Part shown: in pieces, positions 6,635 through 52,822 of the stretch
Layout: every line of letters begins with the position of its first letter
How positions within the stretch are numbered: position 1 is the first letter of the stretch
Sequence record: MK327933.1
Source: Escherichia phage vB_EcoM_G2285
Reading direction: 5' to 3' (one strand)
Length of the DNA: 64,000 nt
Position numbers and translations under genes: made by a program
Notes under the pieces: model-generated
What the model was told of the DNA's origin: nothing
Seen by the model: only the letters and a program-made list of their open reading frames with translations
The model's database searches: none

Positions 6635-6814
6635 TTAACCCTTCTTAAGTAAGTCGTAAAAACCACCGTTCACATGTTTAGGAGCAGAAACCCGACGAGT
6701 AGACAGACGATGACATTCAGGGCAAACATCGTTTTCTCGTTCAGAAATCCTTTTAATTTTTTCATATTCATGGCCACAATCTTCAGATTGGCATTTATAG
6801 TCGTATAACGGCAT
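6635..6814 (-). CDS. zinc-ribbon protein (FmdB-like CxxC...CxxC), 59 aa, absent from ORF track
   Basis: hand translation [59 protein letters not shown]; two CxxC pairs. Confidence 0.6.
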   Translation of the reverse strand: MPLYDYKCQSEDCGHEYEKIKRISERENDVCPECHRLSTRRVSAPKHVNGGFYDLLKKG

Positions 6815-7227
6815 TATTGTTCCTTAAAGTGAGCTTTCAACATTTGATACAAAGACCATGCCTGGTCATTATTTTCGATAGTAATAGTCATCACAGGAAA
6901 TTCAGACAATTCGCCAAGTTCACCAGAATCTTGCTCTTCAGGCGCTTGATACGGATTTTCAACTTCGTCAAAGAATTCTGCTTCATTCGTGGAGAGCCAG
7001 ATAAAGTTTTCATCAAGGATATCACCGCCTGTTGCGTATCCAACCATGCCAGTAGATGTCACAATTTTAGTAGGACGACCAAGATGGTCAACATCTAATA
7101 CTTTAAATGGTTCCATGCCAAGACGTCGTGCATAAATCCCATTATCAGTGTGGTCTTTAATAAACTCTTCTTGGGCACGTTTATCTTTAAATTGGTACCA
7201 TGAGTTAACGCGGAATTTATTAGCCAT
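6814..7227 (-). CDS. hypothetical protein
   Basis: ORF; start chosen at ATG overlapping upstream stop (TAATG). Confidence 0.45.
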
Positions 7228-7454
7228 TAGTAAGTTTCCTTCCAATAAGTTGTACCGTTTTCAGTGATTTCACGGAAGATACCATAGATAGGCATTTCAT
7301 CGCCGAGTTTTTCGTAAACGTAAACCACTTCAGTGTAGCATAAAAATTCAGCCCAGTTTTTCTGTACAACAACTAAATCAGGATTAAACAGAACATCTTC
7401 AAACTCATCGATGTTTGAATCAGTAGTTACGTTTTTAATGATTTGACGTTTCAT
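7227..7454 (-). CDS. hypothetical protein
   Basis: start set at internal ATG with SD AGAGGAGAA; track N-terminal extension runs through the promoter. Confidence 0.45.
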
Positions 7455-7482
7455 AATATTCTCCTCTTGTTTTGATAGGTCT

Positions 7483-7511
7483 ATAGTATCATAGACCATA
7501 GTTGTTGTACA
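7483..7511 (-). promoter_or_regulatory. early-type promoter (-35 TGTACA, 17 bp, -10 TACTAT)
   Basis: minus strand TGTACA-N17-TACTAT then AGACCTATCAAAACAAGAGGAG..ATG. Confidence 0.45.
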
Positions 7512-8036
7512 TCATTTTAGCAAAATAAAATCAACTTGTTCAGCCAATGAACGTCTAAACATTAATTGACAACTTCCGAGGATGAAATCAGGTGCTTCAT
7601 AGACCGCGATGTAGTATCCTTTAGCTTTCAAGAGTTCAACATCCACCTGGTCATCAAACCATGCATAAACCGCGTCAACACTTTCAAATCCAAAATAGAA
7701 CCCTTGAGCCCAATCTTCGTTCAATTCAAATGTGTGCTCAATTCTATAGTATCTTAAGATATTTTGTTCAAGGAGTTTGTCTTCATTTACTGTAGGACGA
7801 TTAGGGACATTATAGTTGTCGCCGTGATGGTAGAAGTTACCTGAGATTATTCCATGTTTATCAAGGAACTCCCATGTTTCTTCAGAGTTGTCGGTGCCCG
7901 ACCAACCGTATGGCGAGCGAGGTTCTTTATTCCAAGAGGTTTCCCAAATTCTGACGGCTTTACCGTCTTCAATAGCAATTCCTGGTAATGATTCACGTTG
8001 AGTACAAAAACTACGTTCTACGCGGTAAACTAACAT
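7512..8036 (-). CDS. hypothetical protein
   Basis: 174 aa ORF with SD GAGGAGAA upstream. Confidence 0.5.
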   Translation of the reverse strand: MLVYRVERSFCTQRESLPGIAIEDGKAVRIWETSWNKEPRSPYGWSGTDNSEETWEFLDKHGIISGNFYHHGDNYNVPNRPTVNEDKLLEQNILRYYRIEHTFELNEDWAQGFYFGFESVDAVYAWFDDQVDVELLKAKGYYIAVYEAPDFILGSCQLMFRRSLAEQVDFILLK

Positions 8037-8062
8037 ATTATTCTCCTCTGGTTGATATGGTT

Positions 8063-8091
8063 ATAATATCAAAACCAGAGGAAAAGTAAAC
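8063..8091 (-). promoter_or_regulatory. early-type promoter (-35 GTTTAC, 17 bp, -10 TATTAT) inside palindrome
   Basis: minus GTTTAC-N17-TATTAT; arms CCTCTGGTT/AACCAGAGG flank the -10. Confidence 0.5.
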
Positions 8092-8095
8092 AACT

Positions 8096-8515
8096 TTATG
8101 CAAAAGATGCTGGACAATATTTTTTGATTTGGAACTCAGGAACTACCATGAACTGTCCAGCGAAAACGATGTTATAAAGCTTAACACCATCTTCTACCCA
8201 TTGGTCCGAAATAAAACCGGCAACTTGATTCGTTGTCCATGGAGACCCGTCAGTTGCAGCAGCAATAGTAAATTCATGGTCTTTTACAACTAAAACAGAC
8301 CTGCACAGTTTCCATTTGAACGCACGTTCTTCTGGCTCAATGAACTGGCTTTTAACGTAACCAATGTTACCATCGGCGTCACGAACTTTAACTTCGTTAC
8401 GTCCAAAAACCGGATCACTCACAGAAAGAACTTCAACCAACTTCCCAGCAACTTTAGAGCGAGAAGCATCCGATACGTGTACATAATCACCTGTAGAGAG
8501 ATTCACAATATTCAT
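8096..8515 (-). CDS. hypothetical protein, tandem paralog A
   Basis: 139 aa; shares GFISDQWVEDG.KLYNIVF block with next ORF. Confidence 0.55.
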   Translation of the reverse strand: MNIVNLSTGDYVHVSDASRSKVAGKLVEVLSVSDPVFGRNEVKVRDADGNIGYVKSQFIEPEERAFKWKLCRSVLVVKDHEFTIAAATDGSPWTTNQVAGFISDQWVEDGVKLYNIVFAGQFMVVPEFQIKKYCPASFA

Positions 8516-8524
8516 AATAATTCC

Positions 8525-8980
8525 TTAAGCTTTACGAGGAGACACATAGCGAGTGATTTCAGATTCTTTAACAACTCGGAAGTCACCTAAGAATACGATA
8601 TTGTATAACTTTTCACCATCTTCAACCCATTGGTCACTAATGAAGCCACACATGGTATCAGTTGTGCTTGGATAACCGTATTCATCGATGAAGTCAAATT
8701 CTTTATCAGTCTGGAATTCAACACCTTTACACAAGGCCCATTTGAACTGTACATTAGGTTCAGTAGAAGCAGATGGAGCGCTCACACGAGTTTCCAGGAA
8801 TTTAGGACTTACGTAAGCGTACTGAGTATCCTGACGTCCAAAACTAGGAATGATTCGAACTTTAACTTCTTTAATACGTCCCATGCCATTTGTGCGAAGT
8901 CCGACAACTTCAACCAGACGACCTGCGGCTTTAGACCGGGATGCAGTTGATACAAGAAGGATTTCACCAATAGTAATCAT
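8525..8980 (-). CDS. hypothetical protein, tandem paralog B
   Basis: paralog of 8096-8515; start set at internal ATG because track extension overlaps promoter -10. Confidence 0.55.
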   Translation of the reverse strand: MITIGEILLVSTASRSKAAGRLVEVVGLRTNGMGRIKEVKVRIIPSFGRQDTQYAYVSPKFLETRVSAPSASTEPNVQFKWALCKGVEFQTDKEFDFIDEYGYPSTTDTMCGFISDQWVEDGEKLYNIVFLGDFRVVKESEITRYVSPRKA

Positions 8981-9001
8981 ATTTTTTCTCTCTTTGTTTA
9001 A

Positions 9002-9031
9002 GTTGAATTCATTATACTCCATCCATCCTTG
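9002..9031 (-). promoter_or_regulatory. early-type promoter (-35 GTTTAC, -10 TATAAT with TGGAG extension)
   Basis: minus GTTTAC-N18-TATAAT; spacer holds palindrome CATCCAAGGATG. Confidence 0.5.
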
Positions 9032-9045
9032 GATGTAAACTGGTT

Positions 9046-9723
9046 TTATCGCTGTTTTACACTTAACGGGTCAGGATTCTCAGGGACATCTTCAAGGCCA
9101 AGCGCATAACGCTGAGCATATTTTAACATCAAAATATCTTTAGCACAATCATGAATACTATCATGGGCAACGAATCCTTTTAGCGTACCCATCGGTAATG
9201 GACATATACTTAATCCTCGTGTCAACGAGTAAGCTTCGATTGCCGTACGAATATCACGTTGAGCCCAGAATTTAACCGGTTCTAATTTATCAGTATCAAT
9301 ATCTGGTTCAAGAACACCTTCATCACGATAGAGGTCACGAATCAAATCGACCAAGATCGGGAAGTCAAAGCTCATACCACGGCACCACATCTGTGATTTC
9401 CATTGGTCAACTTTATTAGCTCGGCAATAATCTAAAAAGATTTTAATGCCTTCAAGCGTAGTGACATCGTCTTCAGACGGAGCCAAGTTTTTACGTGCTT
9501 CAGTCGATTGTTCTTTCCACCATTTCATAGTGGATTTAGCGAAAACTCGCTTCCCTTTCTGAGAAGCTAAATTAAATTTAATTCGCTTACCTCGTTGAAC
9601 AAGTTCTTCAAATGATTCAACAACTTCAGGGTCGGAATTATATGCAATAACCGCAAGGTCAATAACAGCCGCTTTTGATGTATTGCCGAATGTTTCAAAA
9701 TCTATAATAACATCAGTGCTCAT
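9046..9723 (-). CDS. dexA: exonuclease A
   Basis: 225 aa; MSTDVIIDFETFG..AVIDLAVIA..CRGMSFDFPILVDLIRD matches recalled T4 DexA. Confidence 0.88.
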   Translation of the reverse strand: MSTDVIIDFETFGNTSKAAVIDLAVIAYNSDPEVVESFEELVQRGKRIKFNLASQKGKRVFAKSTMKWWKEQSTEARKNLAPSEDDVTTLEGIKIFLDYCRANKVDQWKSQMWCRGMSFDFPILVDLIRDLYRDEGVLEPDIDTDKLEPVKFWAQRDIRTAIEAYSLTRGLSICPLPMGTLKGFVAHDSIHDCAKDILMLKYAQRYALGLEDVPENPDPLSVKQR

Positions 9724-9732
9724 AATTTTCTC

Positions 9733-11046
9733 TCAAATAAAATGGACGTCAAAACGACCACGAGTTGTGCCGACATATAGTAATTGTTTGGCTAATTCTG
9801 AATCGGCATAATGGATACACGGTGTATAAACAAAGGCCGTGTCAACAGACATACCCTGGGCCTTATGGAAGGTTGATACTGGTAATGCCTTCACCTTAGT
9901 GAACATACGTTTAGCATCCCAGAATTCGCTCCACGGGGCTTTACCACCTTTATTCCAGAATTTGTATGTTTCTGCGGTCTTAGCCAAAAACAAATTGAAT
10001 TTATAAAGCTCTTCTTCAGAAGAAATAACCTTTATATCCTCGCGGACGTATTCTTCATCATCCCCATATGTTTCTACTGTAAGATTCCAGTATCGTATCA
10101 TATATTCGCCTGAAACACCACGTGCTTTAACGAATGTAGACGTTTCTACAGCATCTCGAATACGAACGAATTGTCCGTTATTGAAAAGCATTTCAGTCAT
10201 ATTTTTGCCATCTAGCTTGTACGTCTTAGTAAACGGCTCTTGTAGAACAATGACTTCGTCTTTAATAAATGGTTTTTCTGTTTCAAGAAGTTTTCGGCGA
10301 ATAATTGAATTTAACTTGTCCACTGACTTATTTGTGAATGCCATCATTCGATTTTCGAAAAGGTCTTCAGGAGTTTTAACGACGTTAAAATAGTTCATCA
10401 TATACGATTTAAGGTCGGTATATCCGTGAACACCGTGTCCATCAACTACTTTATCGTAAATCCATTTGCCATTACGAATATCAGTCGCAACATCAATAAT
10501 TGGTGCATTGCTACGTTTAACTTCTGTAAGGTTGCATTGCACGAAGTCTTTGTGAGTGAAGAAAGGACTTAGATACGCAGTTGATTCGCCTGGGTCTACC
10601 GGACGAATCTGACATCGGTCGCCGATTCCAATTACTGTACACCATTTAGGGATACTAGCTAACATTATTTTAAAAAGAGAACGGTCGCACATTGACGCTT
10701 CATCAAATAACAGTACACGGCACAAGGCTAAGTCGGGAACCTTTTTCTGTTCAAACAATACGTTTTCTTCGTATGTAGTTGGGTTGATTTTAAGAATGCT
10801 ATGAATAGTCGATGCTTCTTGACCCGCAAGTTTGCTTAGAACCTTTTTAGCAGCATGTGTAGGGGCTGCTAAAATAATACCTGATTCTCCAGAAGAAATA
10901 AGGGCTTCAACGATGAATCTAGTAAGGGTTGTTTTACCTGTACCAGCAGGCCCATTAATAGTTACGTGTTGTTTCTTTTCTTTAATAGCGTTCATAACAA
11001 CGTTGAAGGCGTTTTTCTGGCCTTCAGTCAAATCATCAAATGTCAT
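9733..11046 (-). CDS. dda: Dda DNA helicase (SF1B)
   Basis: 437 aa; MTFDDLTEGQKNAFN..INGPAGTGKTT Walker A; near-colinear with recalled T4 Dda. Confidence 0.93.
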   Translation of the reverse strand: MTFDDLTEGQKNAFNVVMNAIKEKKQHVTINGPAGTGKTTLTRFIVEALISSGESGIILAAPTHAAKKVLSKLAGQEASTIHSILKINPTTYEENVLFEQKKVPDLALCRVLLFDEASMCDRSLFKIMLASIPKWCTVIGIGDRCQIRPVDPGESTAYLSPFFTHKDFVQCNLTEVKRSNAPIIDVATDIRNGKWIYDKVVDGHGVHGYTDLKSYMMNYFNVVKTPEDLFENRMMAFTNKSVDKLNSIIRRKLLETEKPFIKDEVIVLQEPFTKTYKLDGKNMTEMLFNNGQFVRIRDAVETSTFVKARGVSGEYMIRYWNLTVETYGDDEEYVREDIKVISSEEELYKFNLFLAKTAETYKFWNKGGKAPWSEFWDAKRMFTKVKALPVSTFHKAQGMSVDTAFVYTPCIHYADSELAKQLLYVGTTRGRFDVHFI

Positions 11047-52793: not shown

Positions 52794-52822
52794 ATTATAC
52801 TCCAACCATCCTTGGTTGTACA
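52794..52822 (-). promoter_or_regulatory. early-type promoter (-35 TGTACA, 17 bp, TGGAG-TATAAT)
   Basis: minus TGTACA-ACCAAGGATGGTTGGAG-TATAAT. Confidence 0.45.

What the first reader, a model, noticed from the sequence alone, without database searches (positions are those of the whole stretch)
8096..8980. Tandem paralogs upstream of dexA
Two adjacent ORFs share a conserved C-terminal block (GFISDQWVEDG[VE]KLYNIVF[AL]G[QD]F) and similar N-terminal [ST]ASRSK[VA]AG[KR]LVEV segments, indicating a local duplication with divergence; each has its own promoter. Function unknown; the pattern is typical of rapidly evolving host-interaction genes.
Basis: seen in the sequence. Interest (0 to 1): 0.4.

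Follow-up and report, generated by a model that had tools for sequence, protein, structure and literature searches.

The report
Tandem motB and motB-like phage genes
The two adjacent genes are real, anciently duplicated copies of the T4-type phage gene motB (a DNA-coating, H-NS-counteracting host-takeover protein); the pair is already annotated in RB69-like phages, so the finding is correct but ordinary.

Summary
Two minus-strand ORFs, 8525-8980 (151 aa) and 8096-8515 (139 aa), share 45% identity over 145 aa (E 2e-33), including both quoted blocks. Their function is not unknown: both pass the Pfam gathering score for PF17613 (motB) and match PHROG 1671.

The window is a Mosigvirus (RB69/JS09-like, 97% nt). 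In RefSeq these two genes are already "MotB-like transcriptional regulator" x2, and Patterson-West et al. 2021 noted that RB69 has two motB copies.

Three parts of the interpretation need correcting:
- The genes lie downstream of dexA in the direction of transcription.
- Only the first has a promoter (TTTACA-17-TATAAT, 9039-9011). The second starts 9 nt after the first one's stop, behind an invariant Shine-Dalgarno, so the pair looks like one operon.
- The duplication is ancient. Synonymous sites are saturated (pS 0.73), and the short copy forms a 100%-bootstrap clade that falls outside all coliphage motB (69%).

Both copies are under purifying selection (dN/dS 0.23 and 0.14).

The pair travels as a cassette, found in about 200 of about 770 MotB-carrying phage records, including some Tequatrovirus. 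The short copy lacks the interdomain linker and the net positive charge of T4 MotB, so its exact role is untested.

The parts
9011..9039 (-). Sigma70/T4-early-type promoter of the motB/motB-like pair: TTTACA-17 nt-TATAAT, with a small palindrome (ATCCA..TGGAT) in the spacer
   Evidence: It matches 11 of 12 consensus positions and is the best site in the region. It is conserved upstream of motB in 10 or more related phages. It is a hybrid of the two promoters that flank motB.1 in JS09. A near-identical copy lies at 52794-52822(-). Function is inferred from sequence and was not measured.
8981..9010 (-). 5' leader of motB with a purine-rich Shine-Dalgarno (AAAGAGAGAAAAAAT before the ATG)
   Evidence: Read directly from the sequence and conserved in relatives.
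8525..8980 (-). motB (RB69 type), 151 aa plus stop; ortholog of RB69p011 / JS09_0169
   Evidence: Pfam PF17613 4.3e-36. PHROG 1671 2.7e-63. 97% identical to JS09 MotB and 47% to T4 MotB. The start at 8980 aligns with the T4 MotB start (MIINIGE / MITIGE). dN/dS 0.23.
8792..8980 (-). motB N-terminal beta-barrel domain (aa 1-63; KOW/SH3-like; basic; contains GEIxxVSxASRSKAAGRLVEV and VKVR)
   Evidence: The AF2 model shows strands 7-10, 22-30, 36-43 and 53-57. Invariant columns are listed. The part before FKW has net charge +5. The KOW assignment comes from HHpred in PMC7827196.
8747..8791 (-). motB interdomain linker (aa 64-78), predicted disordered and hypervariable in length among relatives
   Evidence: pLDDT is below 50 for residues 65-75. 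Relatives carry insertions of up to about 50 aa here. Local pN/pS is 0.65, the highest of the three segments.
8528..8746 (-). motB C-terminal beta-barrel domain (aa 79-151; FKW ... GFISDQWVEDGEKLYNIVFLGDF core)
   Evidence: AF2 strands 86-146 have pLDDT of about 90. Invariant columns F79 K80 W81 D116 W118 V119 E120 G122 K124 L125 Y126 N127. pN/pS 0.18.
8516..8527 (-). Junction: motB stop codon TAA overlapping the Shine-Dalgarno of motB-like (TAAGGAATTATT, then ATG)
   Evidence: The 24-nt junction is identical in 12 of 13 phages (Sf24 has one extra ATT), even though dS in the adjoining coding sequence is about 0.34. There is no room for a promoter. Co-transcription and coupled translation are inferred.
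8096..8515 (-). motB-like paralog, 139 aa plus stop; ortholog of RB69p010 (RB69ORF010c) / JS09_0170
   Evidence: Pfam PF17613 7.1e-24. PHROG 1671 5.3e-52. 45% identical to the neighbouring motB and 40% to T4 MotB. Orthologs at 80% identity or more occur in 207 phage records. dN/dS 0.14. AF2 mean pLDDT 84.7.
8336..8515 (-). motB-like N-terminal barrel (aa 1-60); lacks the 6-residue IIPxxG loop and is not basic
   Evidence: Alignment. AF2 strands 11-14, 26-31, 41-45 and 51-55. Net charge -2.
8099..8320 (-). motB-like C-terminal barrel (aa 66-139), joined to the N-terminal domain by only about 5 residues (no linker)
   Evidence: Alignment. AF2 strands 73-133. pN/pS 0.17.

Best explanation
The locus is a two-gene early operon of an RB69-like T-even phage (Mosigvirus). 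It lies immediately downstream of dexA on the minus strand and encodes two ancient paralogs of the MotB family.

One strong sigma70-type early promoter (9039-9011) drives motB (8980-8525, 151 aa). The second gene, motB-like (8515-8096, 139 aa), starts 9 nt after the motB stop codon, behind an invariant Shine-Dalgarno that overlaps that stop. It is therefore most likely co-transcribed with motB and translated in step with it.

Each protein consists of two small beta-barrel domains. The N-terminal domain is KOW/SH3-like and carries the SRSK and VKVR motifs. The C-terminal domain carries the FKW and DQWVEDGxKLYNxVF core.

By homology to T4 MotB, the pair most likely acts early in infection as phage-encoded nucleoid-associated proteins. 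T4 MotB has been shown experimentally to bind DNA without sequence specificity, to co-purify with H-NS and StpA, to override the H-NS footprint, to be toxic to E. coli, and to double the burst size. The inferred mechanism here is that the proteins bind DNA and remodel or displace H-NS-type silencing.

What is shown: homology, family membership, gene order, fold prediction, purifying selection, and conservation of the junction.

What is inferred: promoter use, co-transcription, DNA binding, and any effect on H-NS.

The short paralog has no interdomain linker and no net positive charge. It probably does something related but not identical, for example acting as a partner or modulator of MotB or recognising a different target.
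For: Homology and family:
- Paralogy: 45% identity over 145 aa, E 2e-33.
- Pfam PF17613 at 124.6 and 84.9 bits against a cutoff of 25; PHROG 1671.
- 47% and 40% identity to T4 MotB.
- Near-identical genes are annotated as MotB / MotB-like in JS09, RB69, SF and others.

Operon structure:
- Promoter matching 11 of 12 positions, conserved in relatives.
- Invariant TAAGGAATTATTATG junction.

Selection and age:
- Both copies are under purifying selection (dN/dS 0.23 and 0.14) and have constant length in 13 phages.
- Ancient split: pS 0.73; the motB-like clade has 100% bootstrap and sits outside all coliphage motB at 69%.

Fold:
- AF2 gives two beta-barrel domains at pLDDT 82-85.
- There is weak but consistent Foldseek similarity to tandem Tudor, KOW6-KOW7 and eIF5A, and to phage MotB and 'KOW domain' proteins.

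Biochemistry of T4 MotB: PMC6070864 (abstract) and PMC7827196. Son et al. 2021, NAR 49:9229, is known to me only by its title, as cited.
Against: - No experiment exists on either RB69-type protein.
- T4 MotB is basic (pI 9.2, net +6). The window's MotB is neutral overall (pI 6.35; N-terminal part +5, C-terminal part -5). The motB-like protein is slightly acidic (pI 5.7, net -2). Histone-like DNA coating may therefore not transfer, especially to motB-like.
- Identity to T4 MotB is only 40-47%.
- The fold-search hits have low TM-scores (0.3-0.4) because the relative orientation of the two domains is uncertain.
- Promoter use and co-transcription are sequence inferences only.
- The promoter-like scan as a whole is not enriched over shuffles (13 found versus 12.4 expected). 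The promoter call rests on the match quality of this one site and its conservation.
Confidence: 0.8

Rival explanations
1. One reading: a recent local tandem duplication, now diverging fast under positive (arms-race) selection, with each copy independently transcribed.
For: The genes are adjacent and homologous. The cassette is 3-4 times more divergent among Mosigviruses than dexA, ORF174, cef or goF. The motB linker has a relaxed pN/pS of 0.65.
Against: - Synonymous sites between the copies are saturated (pS 0.73), and the longest shared nucleotide run is 14 nt.
- The short copy is a separate 100%-bootstrap clade, placed outside all coliphage motB types.
- The same pair, with the same 9-nt spacer, occurs in two genera.
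- dN/dS is 0.14-0.23 overall and below 0.35 in every folded domain.
- No promoter was found for the second gene.
Confidence: 0.07
2. The short copy has taken on a different function. It keeps the MotB fold but no longer coats DNA. Instead it might act as a partner or modulator of MotB, bind a host protein such as H-NS or StpA directly, or bind RNA, as many KOW, OB and Tudor-like barrels do.
For: - It lacks the whole interdomain linker and a 6-residue loop of the N-terminal domain.
- Its net charge is -2 and its N-terminal domain is acidic, against +6 for T4 MotB.
- Selection on it is strict (dN/dS 0.14).
- It co-occurs almost one-to-one with RB69-type motB (207 versus 202 records).
- An invariant coupling junction suggests stoichiometric co-expression.
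Against: - The residues invariant across the family are all retained in both copies: SRSK, VKVR, FKW and DxWVExGxKLYN. That argues for a shared core activity.
- Natural hybrids that join a motB N-terminal half to a motB-like C-terminal half exist as single genes. The C-terminal domains therefore seem interchangeable.
- There are no interaction data.
Confidence: 0.3
3. The second copy did not arise by duplication in place. It is a motB allele from a distant T-even lineage that was inserted next to the resident motB by recombination.
For: - The region is a recombination hotspot. motB.1 is present or absent through promoter-promoter exchange and ORF174 is present or absent.
- motB genes themselves are mosaic (LF82-1).
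- The pair is shared between genera at 78-91% identity, while the flanking ORF174/MotB.2 is only about 40% identical.
- The motB-like clade branches outside all coliphage motB.
Against: - No phage in the collections searched was seen carrying a motB-like type gene as its only motB. tblastn identities fall straight from 84% or more to about 43%.
- The tight 9-nt junction with coupled signals looks like an old, co-adapted unit.
- The tree is neighbour-joining, and the decisive node has 69% support.
Confidence: 0.15
4. The short copy is a decaying, non-functional remnant.
For: It is shorter (139 aa) and has lost the linker. T4 manages with one motB.
Against: dN/dS is 0.14. It has an intact 139-codon frame in all 13 genomes examined and in 207 phage records. 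Its ribosome-binding site is invariant. The fold prediction is confident (pLDDT 84.7).
Confidence: 0.02

Closest known systems
Bacteriophage T4 MotB (gene motB, NP_049626; Pfam PF17613)
   Same: Same family. Same two-domain plan with a KOW-like N-terminal barrel and a C-terminal barrel carrying the DQWVEDGVKLYN core. Same early, non-essential dexA-cef region of the genome. The 151-aa gene starts at the homologous methionine.
   Different: Only 47% (motB) and 40% (motB-like) identical. T4 has a single copy (one tblastn place). T4 MotB is strongly basic (pI 9.2), whereas the window's proteins have pI 6.35 and 5.7. The linker differs in sequence and length. The gene order around it also differs: T4 has dexA-motB.2-motB.1-motB-cef, while here it is dexA-motB-motB-like-ORF174 (the motB.2 homolog)-cef.
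RB69 motB (RB69p011) and RB69ORF010c (RB69p010); JS09_0169 / JS09_0170
   Same: These are direct orthologs: 91-97% amino-acid identity, the same order and the same 9-nt spacer. They are already annotated as 'MotB-like transcriptional regulator' x2. The two motB copies in RB69 were noted in PMC7827196.
   Different: RB69, JS09 and most relatives also carry motB.1 between dexA and motB. It is intact in JS09 and frameshifted in RB69. This window has lost it cleanly, as have AV115, AV118 and PNJ-9.
T4 MotB.1 and its homologs (LSm-like N-terminal domain plus MotB-type C-terminal core)
   Same: Shares the C-terminal core GWVTDQWIEDGVELLNVVHAGDFSVVP (62% identity over 29 aa to motB-like) and the same genomic neighbourhood.
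   Different: The N-terminal domain is unrelated: an LSm-like fold shared with GoF and Frd.2 (PMC12152347). Neither window protein has it. motB.1 is absent from this window.
Tandem Tudor (53BP1), Spt5/DSIF KOW6-KOW7, archaeal eIF5A (structural resemblance only)
   Same: Two consecutive small SH3-like beta-barrels. These are the best Foldseek PDB hits for both models (E 1e-4 to 1e-2). eIF5A and KOW were also the HHpred hits reported for T4 MotB.
   Different: Sequence identity is 13-18% and TM-scores are 0.3-0.4. There is no evidence of shared ancestry or of methyl-lysine, RNA polymerase or ribosome binding. A sequence profile search of the PDB finds nothing.
Other phage antagonists of H-NS (T7 gp5.5; T4 Arn) - functional analogy, cited from my own knowledge
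   Same: Early phage proteins that interfere with H-NS-mediated silencing.
   Different: They are unrelated in sequence and mechanism. gp5.5 binds H-NS directly and Arn is a DNA mimic, whereas MotB binds DNA itself. This comparison was not tested here.

Membership tests
MotB family (Pfam PF17613 / PHROG 1671) | Whole-protein score above Pfam's gathering cutoff (25 bits) | tested here: met
   151/165-aa protein: 124.6 bits, covering profile positions 2-157 of 162. 139-aa protein: 84.9 bits in 2 stretches. PHROG 1671: 2.7e-63 and 5.3e-52, both full length.
MotB family (Pfam PF17613 / PHROG 1671) | MotB-type N-terminal domain (GEIxRVSxxSRSKAAGxLVEV ... VKVR; KOW-like barrel) | tested here: met
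   G, S, SRSK, G, VE and VKVR are invariant across 43 family members including both window proteins. AF2 predicts a 4-5-stranded barrel. Pfam's own KOW model gives no hit at E up to 1. The KOW label rests on HHpred in PMC7827196 and on weak Foldseek hits to KOW6-7.
MotB family (Pfam PF17613 / PHROG 1671) | C-terminal core FKW ... DQWVEDGxKLYNxVFxG | tested here: met
   These columns are invariant in both proteins. The AF2 C-terminal barrel has pLDDT of about 90.
MotB family (Pfam PF17613 / PHROG 1671) | Flexible interdomain linker between the two barrels | tested here: inconclusive
   Present in the 151-aa protein (residues 64-78, pLDDT below 50). Absent from the 139-aa protein, where about 5 residues join the domains. 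The linker is not a curated defining feature, but it is present in every motB proper that was aligned.
MotB family (Pfam PF17613 / PHROG 1671) | Location in the early, non-essential dda-dexA-...-cef-goF region of a Tevenvirinae genome | tested here: met
   The gene order on the minus strand is dda, dexA, motB, motB-like, ORF174, cef, goF.
MotB function (as shown for T4 MotB) | Tight, sequence-nonspecific DNA binding and nucleoid compaction | not testable with these tools
   Known only for T4 MotB (PMC6070864, PMC7827196). An indirect indicator is not met: net charge is 0 and -2 here against +6 for T4 MotB.
MotB function (as shown for T4 MotB) | Co-purification with H-NS and StpA, alteration of the H-NS footprint, toxicity to E. 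coli, roughly 2-fold burst-size benefit | not testable with these tools
   Biochemical and genetic properties of T4 MotB only.
MotB function (as shown for T4 MotB) | Early expression from a sigma70-type early promoter | tested here: inconclusive
   A strong, conserved promoter-like site precedes motB. No expression data are available. No separate site was found for motB-like.
MotB.1 group (Categories 2-4 of PMC7827196; LSm-like family of PMC12152347) | LSm-like N-terminal domain homologous to MotB.1, GoF and Frd.2 | tested here: not met
   BLASTP of both window proteins against T4 MotB.1 and JS09 MotB.1 aligns only the C-terminal core of 29-36 aa. The N-terminal domains are of the MotB type. 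Neither gene is therefore a motB.1.

The most novel reading that the evidence does not exclude
The linker-less, non-basic motB-like protein may be a distinct and so far uncharacterised subfamily rather than a redundant second MotB. It appears to have been co-inherited and co-translated with RB69-type MotB since before the coliphage MotB types diverged. It might work as an obligate partner or regulator of MotB (for example capping or tuning MotB-DNA filaments), or it might target a different host nucleoid protein. On this reading the RB69-type phages use a two-component nucleoid-remodelling system where T4 uses one protein.
Probability: 0.25. Interest if true: 0.4.

Novelty: already known. Interest (0 to 1): 0.15.

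Why it matters
It matters little for discovery. The genes, their family and even the existence of two motB copies in RB69-type phages are already in RefSeq annotations and in the literature.

What this analysis adds is modest:
- The second copy is an ancient, separately conserved clade, present in about a quarter of MotB-carrying phage genomes. It is under stronger purifying selection than motB itself.
- It lacks the linker and the basic charge of the only characterised family member.
- It is apparently translationally coupled to motB.

This gives people who study phage nucleoid-associated proteins and H-NS counter-silencing a natural experiment, one-protein versus two-protein versions of the system. 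It also warns against transferring the T4 MotB biochemistry uncritically to every gene annotated 'MotB-like transcriptional regulator'.

Tried and rejected
- Gene conversion as the cause of the conserved C-terminal block: rejected. Synonymous positions inside the block differ, and the longest identical nucleotide run anywhere is 14 nt.
- A separate sigma70 or MotA-box (middle) promoter for the second gene: none found. The two TGCTT matches on the minus strand have the wrong spacing or position.
- The 165-aa reading of the first ORF: rejected. Its ATG (9022) lies upstream of the -10 hexamer, and the T4 and RB69 proteins start at the homologous internal Met. Several public annotations and metagenome gene calls nevertheless use longer forms.
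- Sequence search of solved structures, with a single sequence and with a profile: nothing significant.
- Rfam scan of 7000-10000: only a sub-threshold S15-leader hit (21 bits against 39.5), taken as chance.
- IMG/VR locus search: only 2 loci carrying the short paralog, so it was not useful for population analysis. Annotated phage records were used instead.
- Antisense ORFs on the plus strand, such as 8630-8950 (106 aa): they lie wholly inside the motB coding region (8525-8980) on the opposite strand. They were not examined further, and I treated them as not genes.
- Son et al. 2021 (NAR, PMC8450097) could not be opened in the library. It is cited by title only.

Full report
WHAT IS THERE

The finding covers two ORFs on the minus strand:
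- 8096-8515, 139 aa.
- 8525-9022, 165 aa as a mechanical ORF.

BLASTP of the two proteins gives 65/145 identities (45%), E 2e-33.

WHAT IT IS

Both proteins belong to the MotB family.
- Pfam PF17613 scores 124.6 and 84.9 bits against a gathering score of 25.
- PHROG 1671, 'MotB-like transcriptional regulator', matches at 2.7e-63 and 5.3e-52.

The surrounding DNA is 95-97% identical to Mosigvirus genomes (RB69-like T-even phages such as mogra, JS09 and AV110-118). In those records the same two genes are already annotated as 'MotB modifier of transcription' and 'MotB-like protein'.

All genes here are on the minus strand, in the order dda (9733-11046), dexA (9046-9723), motB, motB-like, ORF174 (7512-8036, a homolog of T4 MotB.2 at 34% identity), cef, goF. 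The pair therefore lies downstream of dexA in the direction of transcription, not upstream.

The 151-aa protein is 47% identical to T4 MotB and the 139-aa protein 40%. T4 itself has a single motB.

Patterson-West et al. [quoted passage not shown]

TRANSCRIPTION AND TRANSLATION SIGNALS

The best sigma70-type site in the region is TTTACA-17-TATAAT at 9039-9011(-), matching 11 of 12 positions. It is conserved upstream of motB in the relatives. Its -10 hexamer lies downstream of the ATG at 9022, and T4 and RB69 MotB start at the methionine homologous to 8980. The 14-residue extension of the 165-aa ORF is therefore an artefact.

Only 9 nt separate the motB stop from the motB-like ATG (TAAGGAATTATTATG), with AAGGA as a Shine-Dalgarno overlapping the stop codon. 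This junction is identical in 12 of 13 phages, with one extra ATT in the thirteenth, even though synonymous divergence in the adjoining coding sequence is about 0.34.

No minus-strand promoter-like site and no correctly spaced MotA box precedes the second gene. I infer one operon with coupled translation.

AGE AND MODE OF EVOLUTION

Divergence between the two paralogs:
- pN is 0.36 and pS is 0.73, which is saturation.
- Only 39 of 67 identical residues use the same codon.
- The longest identical nucleotide run is 14 nt.

The duplication is therefore ancient. The conserved blocks are held by selection on the protein, not by gene conversion.

In a neighbour-joining tree of 54 family members, rooted on Klebsiella-phage homologs, the motB-like sequences form a 100%-bootstrap clade. 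It lies outside a 69%-supported group containing all coliphage motB types: RB69-type, T4-type and long-linker types.

The same pair, with the same 9-nt spacer, occurs in Mosigvirus and in some Tequatrovirus (ime09, Sf24). There motB is 78-83% and motB-like 90-91% identical to the window's proteins, while the neighbouring MotB.2 homolog is only about 40% identical. The pair therefore behaves as a mobile cassette.

Across the phage collection, motB-like orthologs at 80% identity or more are in 207 records, and RB69-type motB at 60% or more in 202, out of about 770 MotB-carrying records.

SELECTION

Pairwise Nei-Gojobori estimates over 13 phages give dN/dS of 0.23 for motB and 0.14 for motB-like.

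By segment, pN/pS for motB is 0.33 in the N-terminal domain, 0.65 in the linker and 0.18 in the C-terminal domain. For motB-like it is 0.15 in the N-terminal and 0.17 in the C-terminal domain.

Within Mosigvirus, dS of both genes is about 0.34, against 0.08-0.13 for dexA, ORF174, cef and goF. The excess divergence is mostly synonymous. That is what one expects of old alleles shuffled by recombination, not of an arms race. Both copies are clearly functional.

STRUCTURE

AlphaFold2 with a 43-sequence alignment gives mean pLDDT of 84.7 for motB-like and 81.7 for motB. Each model has two all-beta domains. Only the motB linker (residues 65-75) is disordered.

Foldseek against the PDB returns tandem Tudor domains of 53BP1, KOW6-KOW7 of DSIF and eIF5A. 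E-values are 1e-4 to 1e-2 but TM-scores are only 0.3-0.4. Against viral models it returns MotB homologs and 'KOW domain' proteins of other T4-like phages. This agrees broadly with the published HHpred assignment of a KOW-like N-terminal domain plus an OB-like C-terminal domain. No relative has a solved structure by sequence search.

Compared with motB, motB-like lacks a 6-residue loop in the N-terminal domain and the entire interdomain linker.

MECHANISM

T4 MotB has been shown to bind DNA tightly and nonspecifically, modified or not. It co-purifies with H-NS and StpA, dominates the H-NS footprint on proV, up-regulates H-NS-repressed host genes when overexpressed, is toxic to E. coli, and doubles the burst size (PMC6070864; PMC7827196).

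By homology, the most likely role of the window's pair is the same kind of early nucleoid remodelling and H-NS counter-silencing. This step is inference.

One caution is specific to this locus. T4 MotB is basic (pI 9.2, net +6). The window's MotB is neutral overall, with a basic N-terminal part (+5) and an acidic C-terminal part (-5). The motB-like protein is slightly acidic (pI 5.7). The family-invariant basic residues (R and K of SRSK, K and R of VKVR, K of FKW, K of GxKLYN) are kept in both copies. Histone-like coating is nevertheless less certain here, particularly for motB-like, which may have a modulatory or partner role.

SURROUNDINGS AND SIDE OBSERVATIONS

Loss of motB.1. Most relatives carry a third MotB-related gene, motB.1 (164 aa; an LSm-like N-terminal domain plus the MotB C-terminal core), between dexA and motB. 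It is missing from this window. In JS09, motB.1 is flanked by two near-identical early promoters. The window has a single hybrid promoter whose left part matches the upstream copy and whose right part matches the downstream copy. The gene was therefore lost by promoter-to-promoter recombination. This is the mechanism described for PeSL cassettes in T4-type phages (PMC2839356). I did not test whether these repeats meet the PeSL definition, which requires a terminator stem-loop. A further copy of the promoter repeat lies at 52794-52822(-).

RB69 motB.1. It is frameshifted. The 29-aa 'Category 3' peptide of the 2021 paper is simply its C-terminal remnant.

Natural hybrids. Single genes that join a motB N-terminal half to a motB-like C-terminal half, at FKW or at DQWVEDG, occur in several independent assemblies (P0027, P0029, P0031). 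LF82-1 motB has a T4-type N-terminal domain on an RB69-type C-terminal domain. Domains of this family recombine.

VERDICT

The interpretation needs correcting on function, age, promoter and orientation. The object is a known, annotated gene pair of a characterised family. Novelty: already known. Interest: low (0.15).

The only open point is the specific role of the conserved, linker-less, non-basic paralog.

Noticed in passing
window 9011-9045 (compare L001:3981-4605): Relatives such as JS09 carry a 164-aa motB.1 gene between dexA and motB. It is absent here. The window's single promoter is a hybrid of the two near-identical promoters that flank motB.1 in JS09, so the gene was lost by promoter-to-promoter recombination (PeSL-like modular shuffling).
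   Followed up: yes
window 8981-9022: The mechanical 165-aa ORF begins at an ATG that lies upstream of the -10 hexamer of the promoter. Several public annotations (PNJ-9, ATK47) and many metagenome gene calls (MLYIQGWMEYNEFNLNKERKNM...) use such over-extended starts. The homologous start is the ATG at 8980.
   Followed up: yes
L026:3001-3492, L027-L029, L030:1373-1894 (proteins P0029, P0027, P0031): Natural single-gene hybrids consist of a motB N-terminal domain and linker (T4-type or RB69-type) fused at FKW or DQWVEDG to the motB-like C-terminal domain. P0029 was seen in 5 contigs from several samples. This indicates recombination between the tandem paralogs or between their alleles.
   Followed up: partly
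L022:1443-1991 (phage LF82-1): The motB of LF82-1 is a mosaic, with a T4-type N-terminal domain (…VVSIQLKEGVKDEDSEVKVR…) joined to an RB69-type C-terminal domain. The annotated start also looks over-extended.
   Followed up: no
L018:982-1478 (RB69): RB69 motB.1 is frameshifted into a 132-aa ORF plus a 29-aa ORF. The 29-aa 'Category 3' peptide discussed in Patterson-West 2021 is the C-terminal remnant of that gene.
   Followed up: partly
window 7512-8036 (-); L023 (PNJ-9); L003 (T4): ORF174 is the homolog of T4 MotB.2 (34% identity). It sits on the cef side of the motB genes here, but on the dexA side in T4 and ime09. It is missing altogether from PNJ-9. The whole dexA-cef interval is a hotspot of gene gain, loss and rearrangement.
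   Followed up: partly
window 52794-52822 (-): A second copy of the motB-type early promoter repeat (TGTACAACCAAGGATGGTTGGAGTATAAT, 1 mismatch to the search pattern) lies 44 kb away. With up to 3 mismatches allowed, the promoter pattern gave 6 matches in the window in all, against 1.2 expected by chance.
   Followed up: no
window 8096-8980 versus flanks 6814-8036 and 9046-9723: Among Mosigviruses, synonymous divergence of motB and motB-like (dS about 0.34) is 3-4 times that of the flanking dexA, ORF174, cef and goF (0.08-0.13). The motB-like alignment shows two haplotype blocks in mosaic combinations. This suggests long-lived alleles exchanged by recombination.
   Followed up: partly
window 8063-8090 (-): A weak promoter-like site (TTTACT-16-TATTAT with an upstream TG, 9 of 12 positions) lies in the 59-nt gap after motB-like and before ORF174. 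It may start a separate transcript for ORF174.
   Followed up: no
window 7227-7499 (-): cef is a 90-aa mechanical ORF, but it is annotated as 75 aa (228 nt) in JS09 and RB69 and as 273 nt in AV115. The start codon is unresolved.
   Followed up: no
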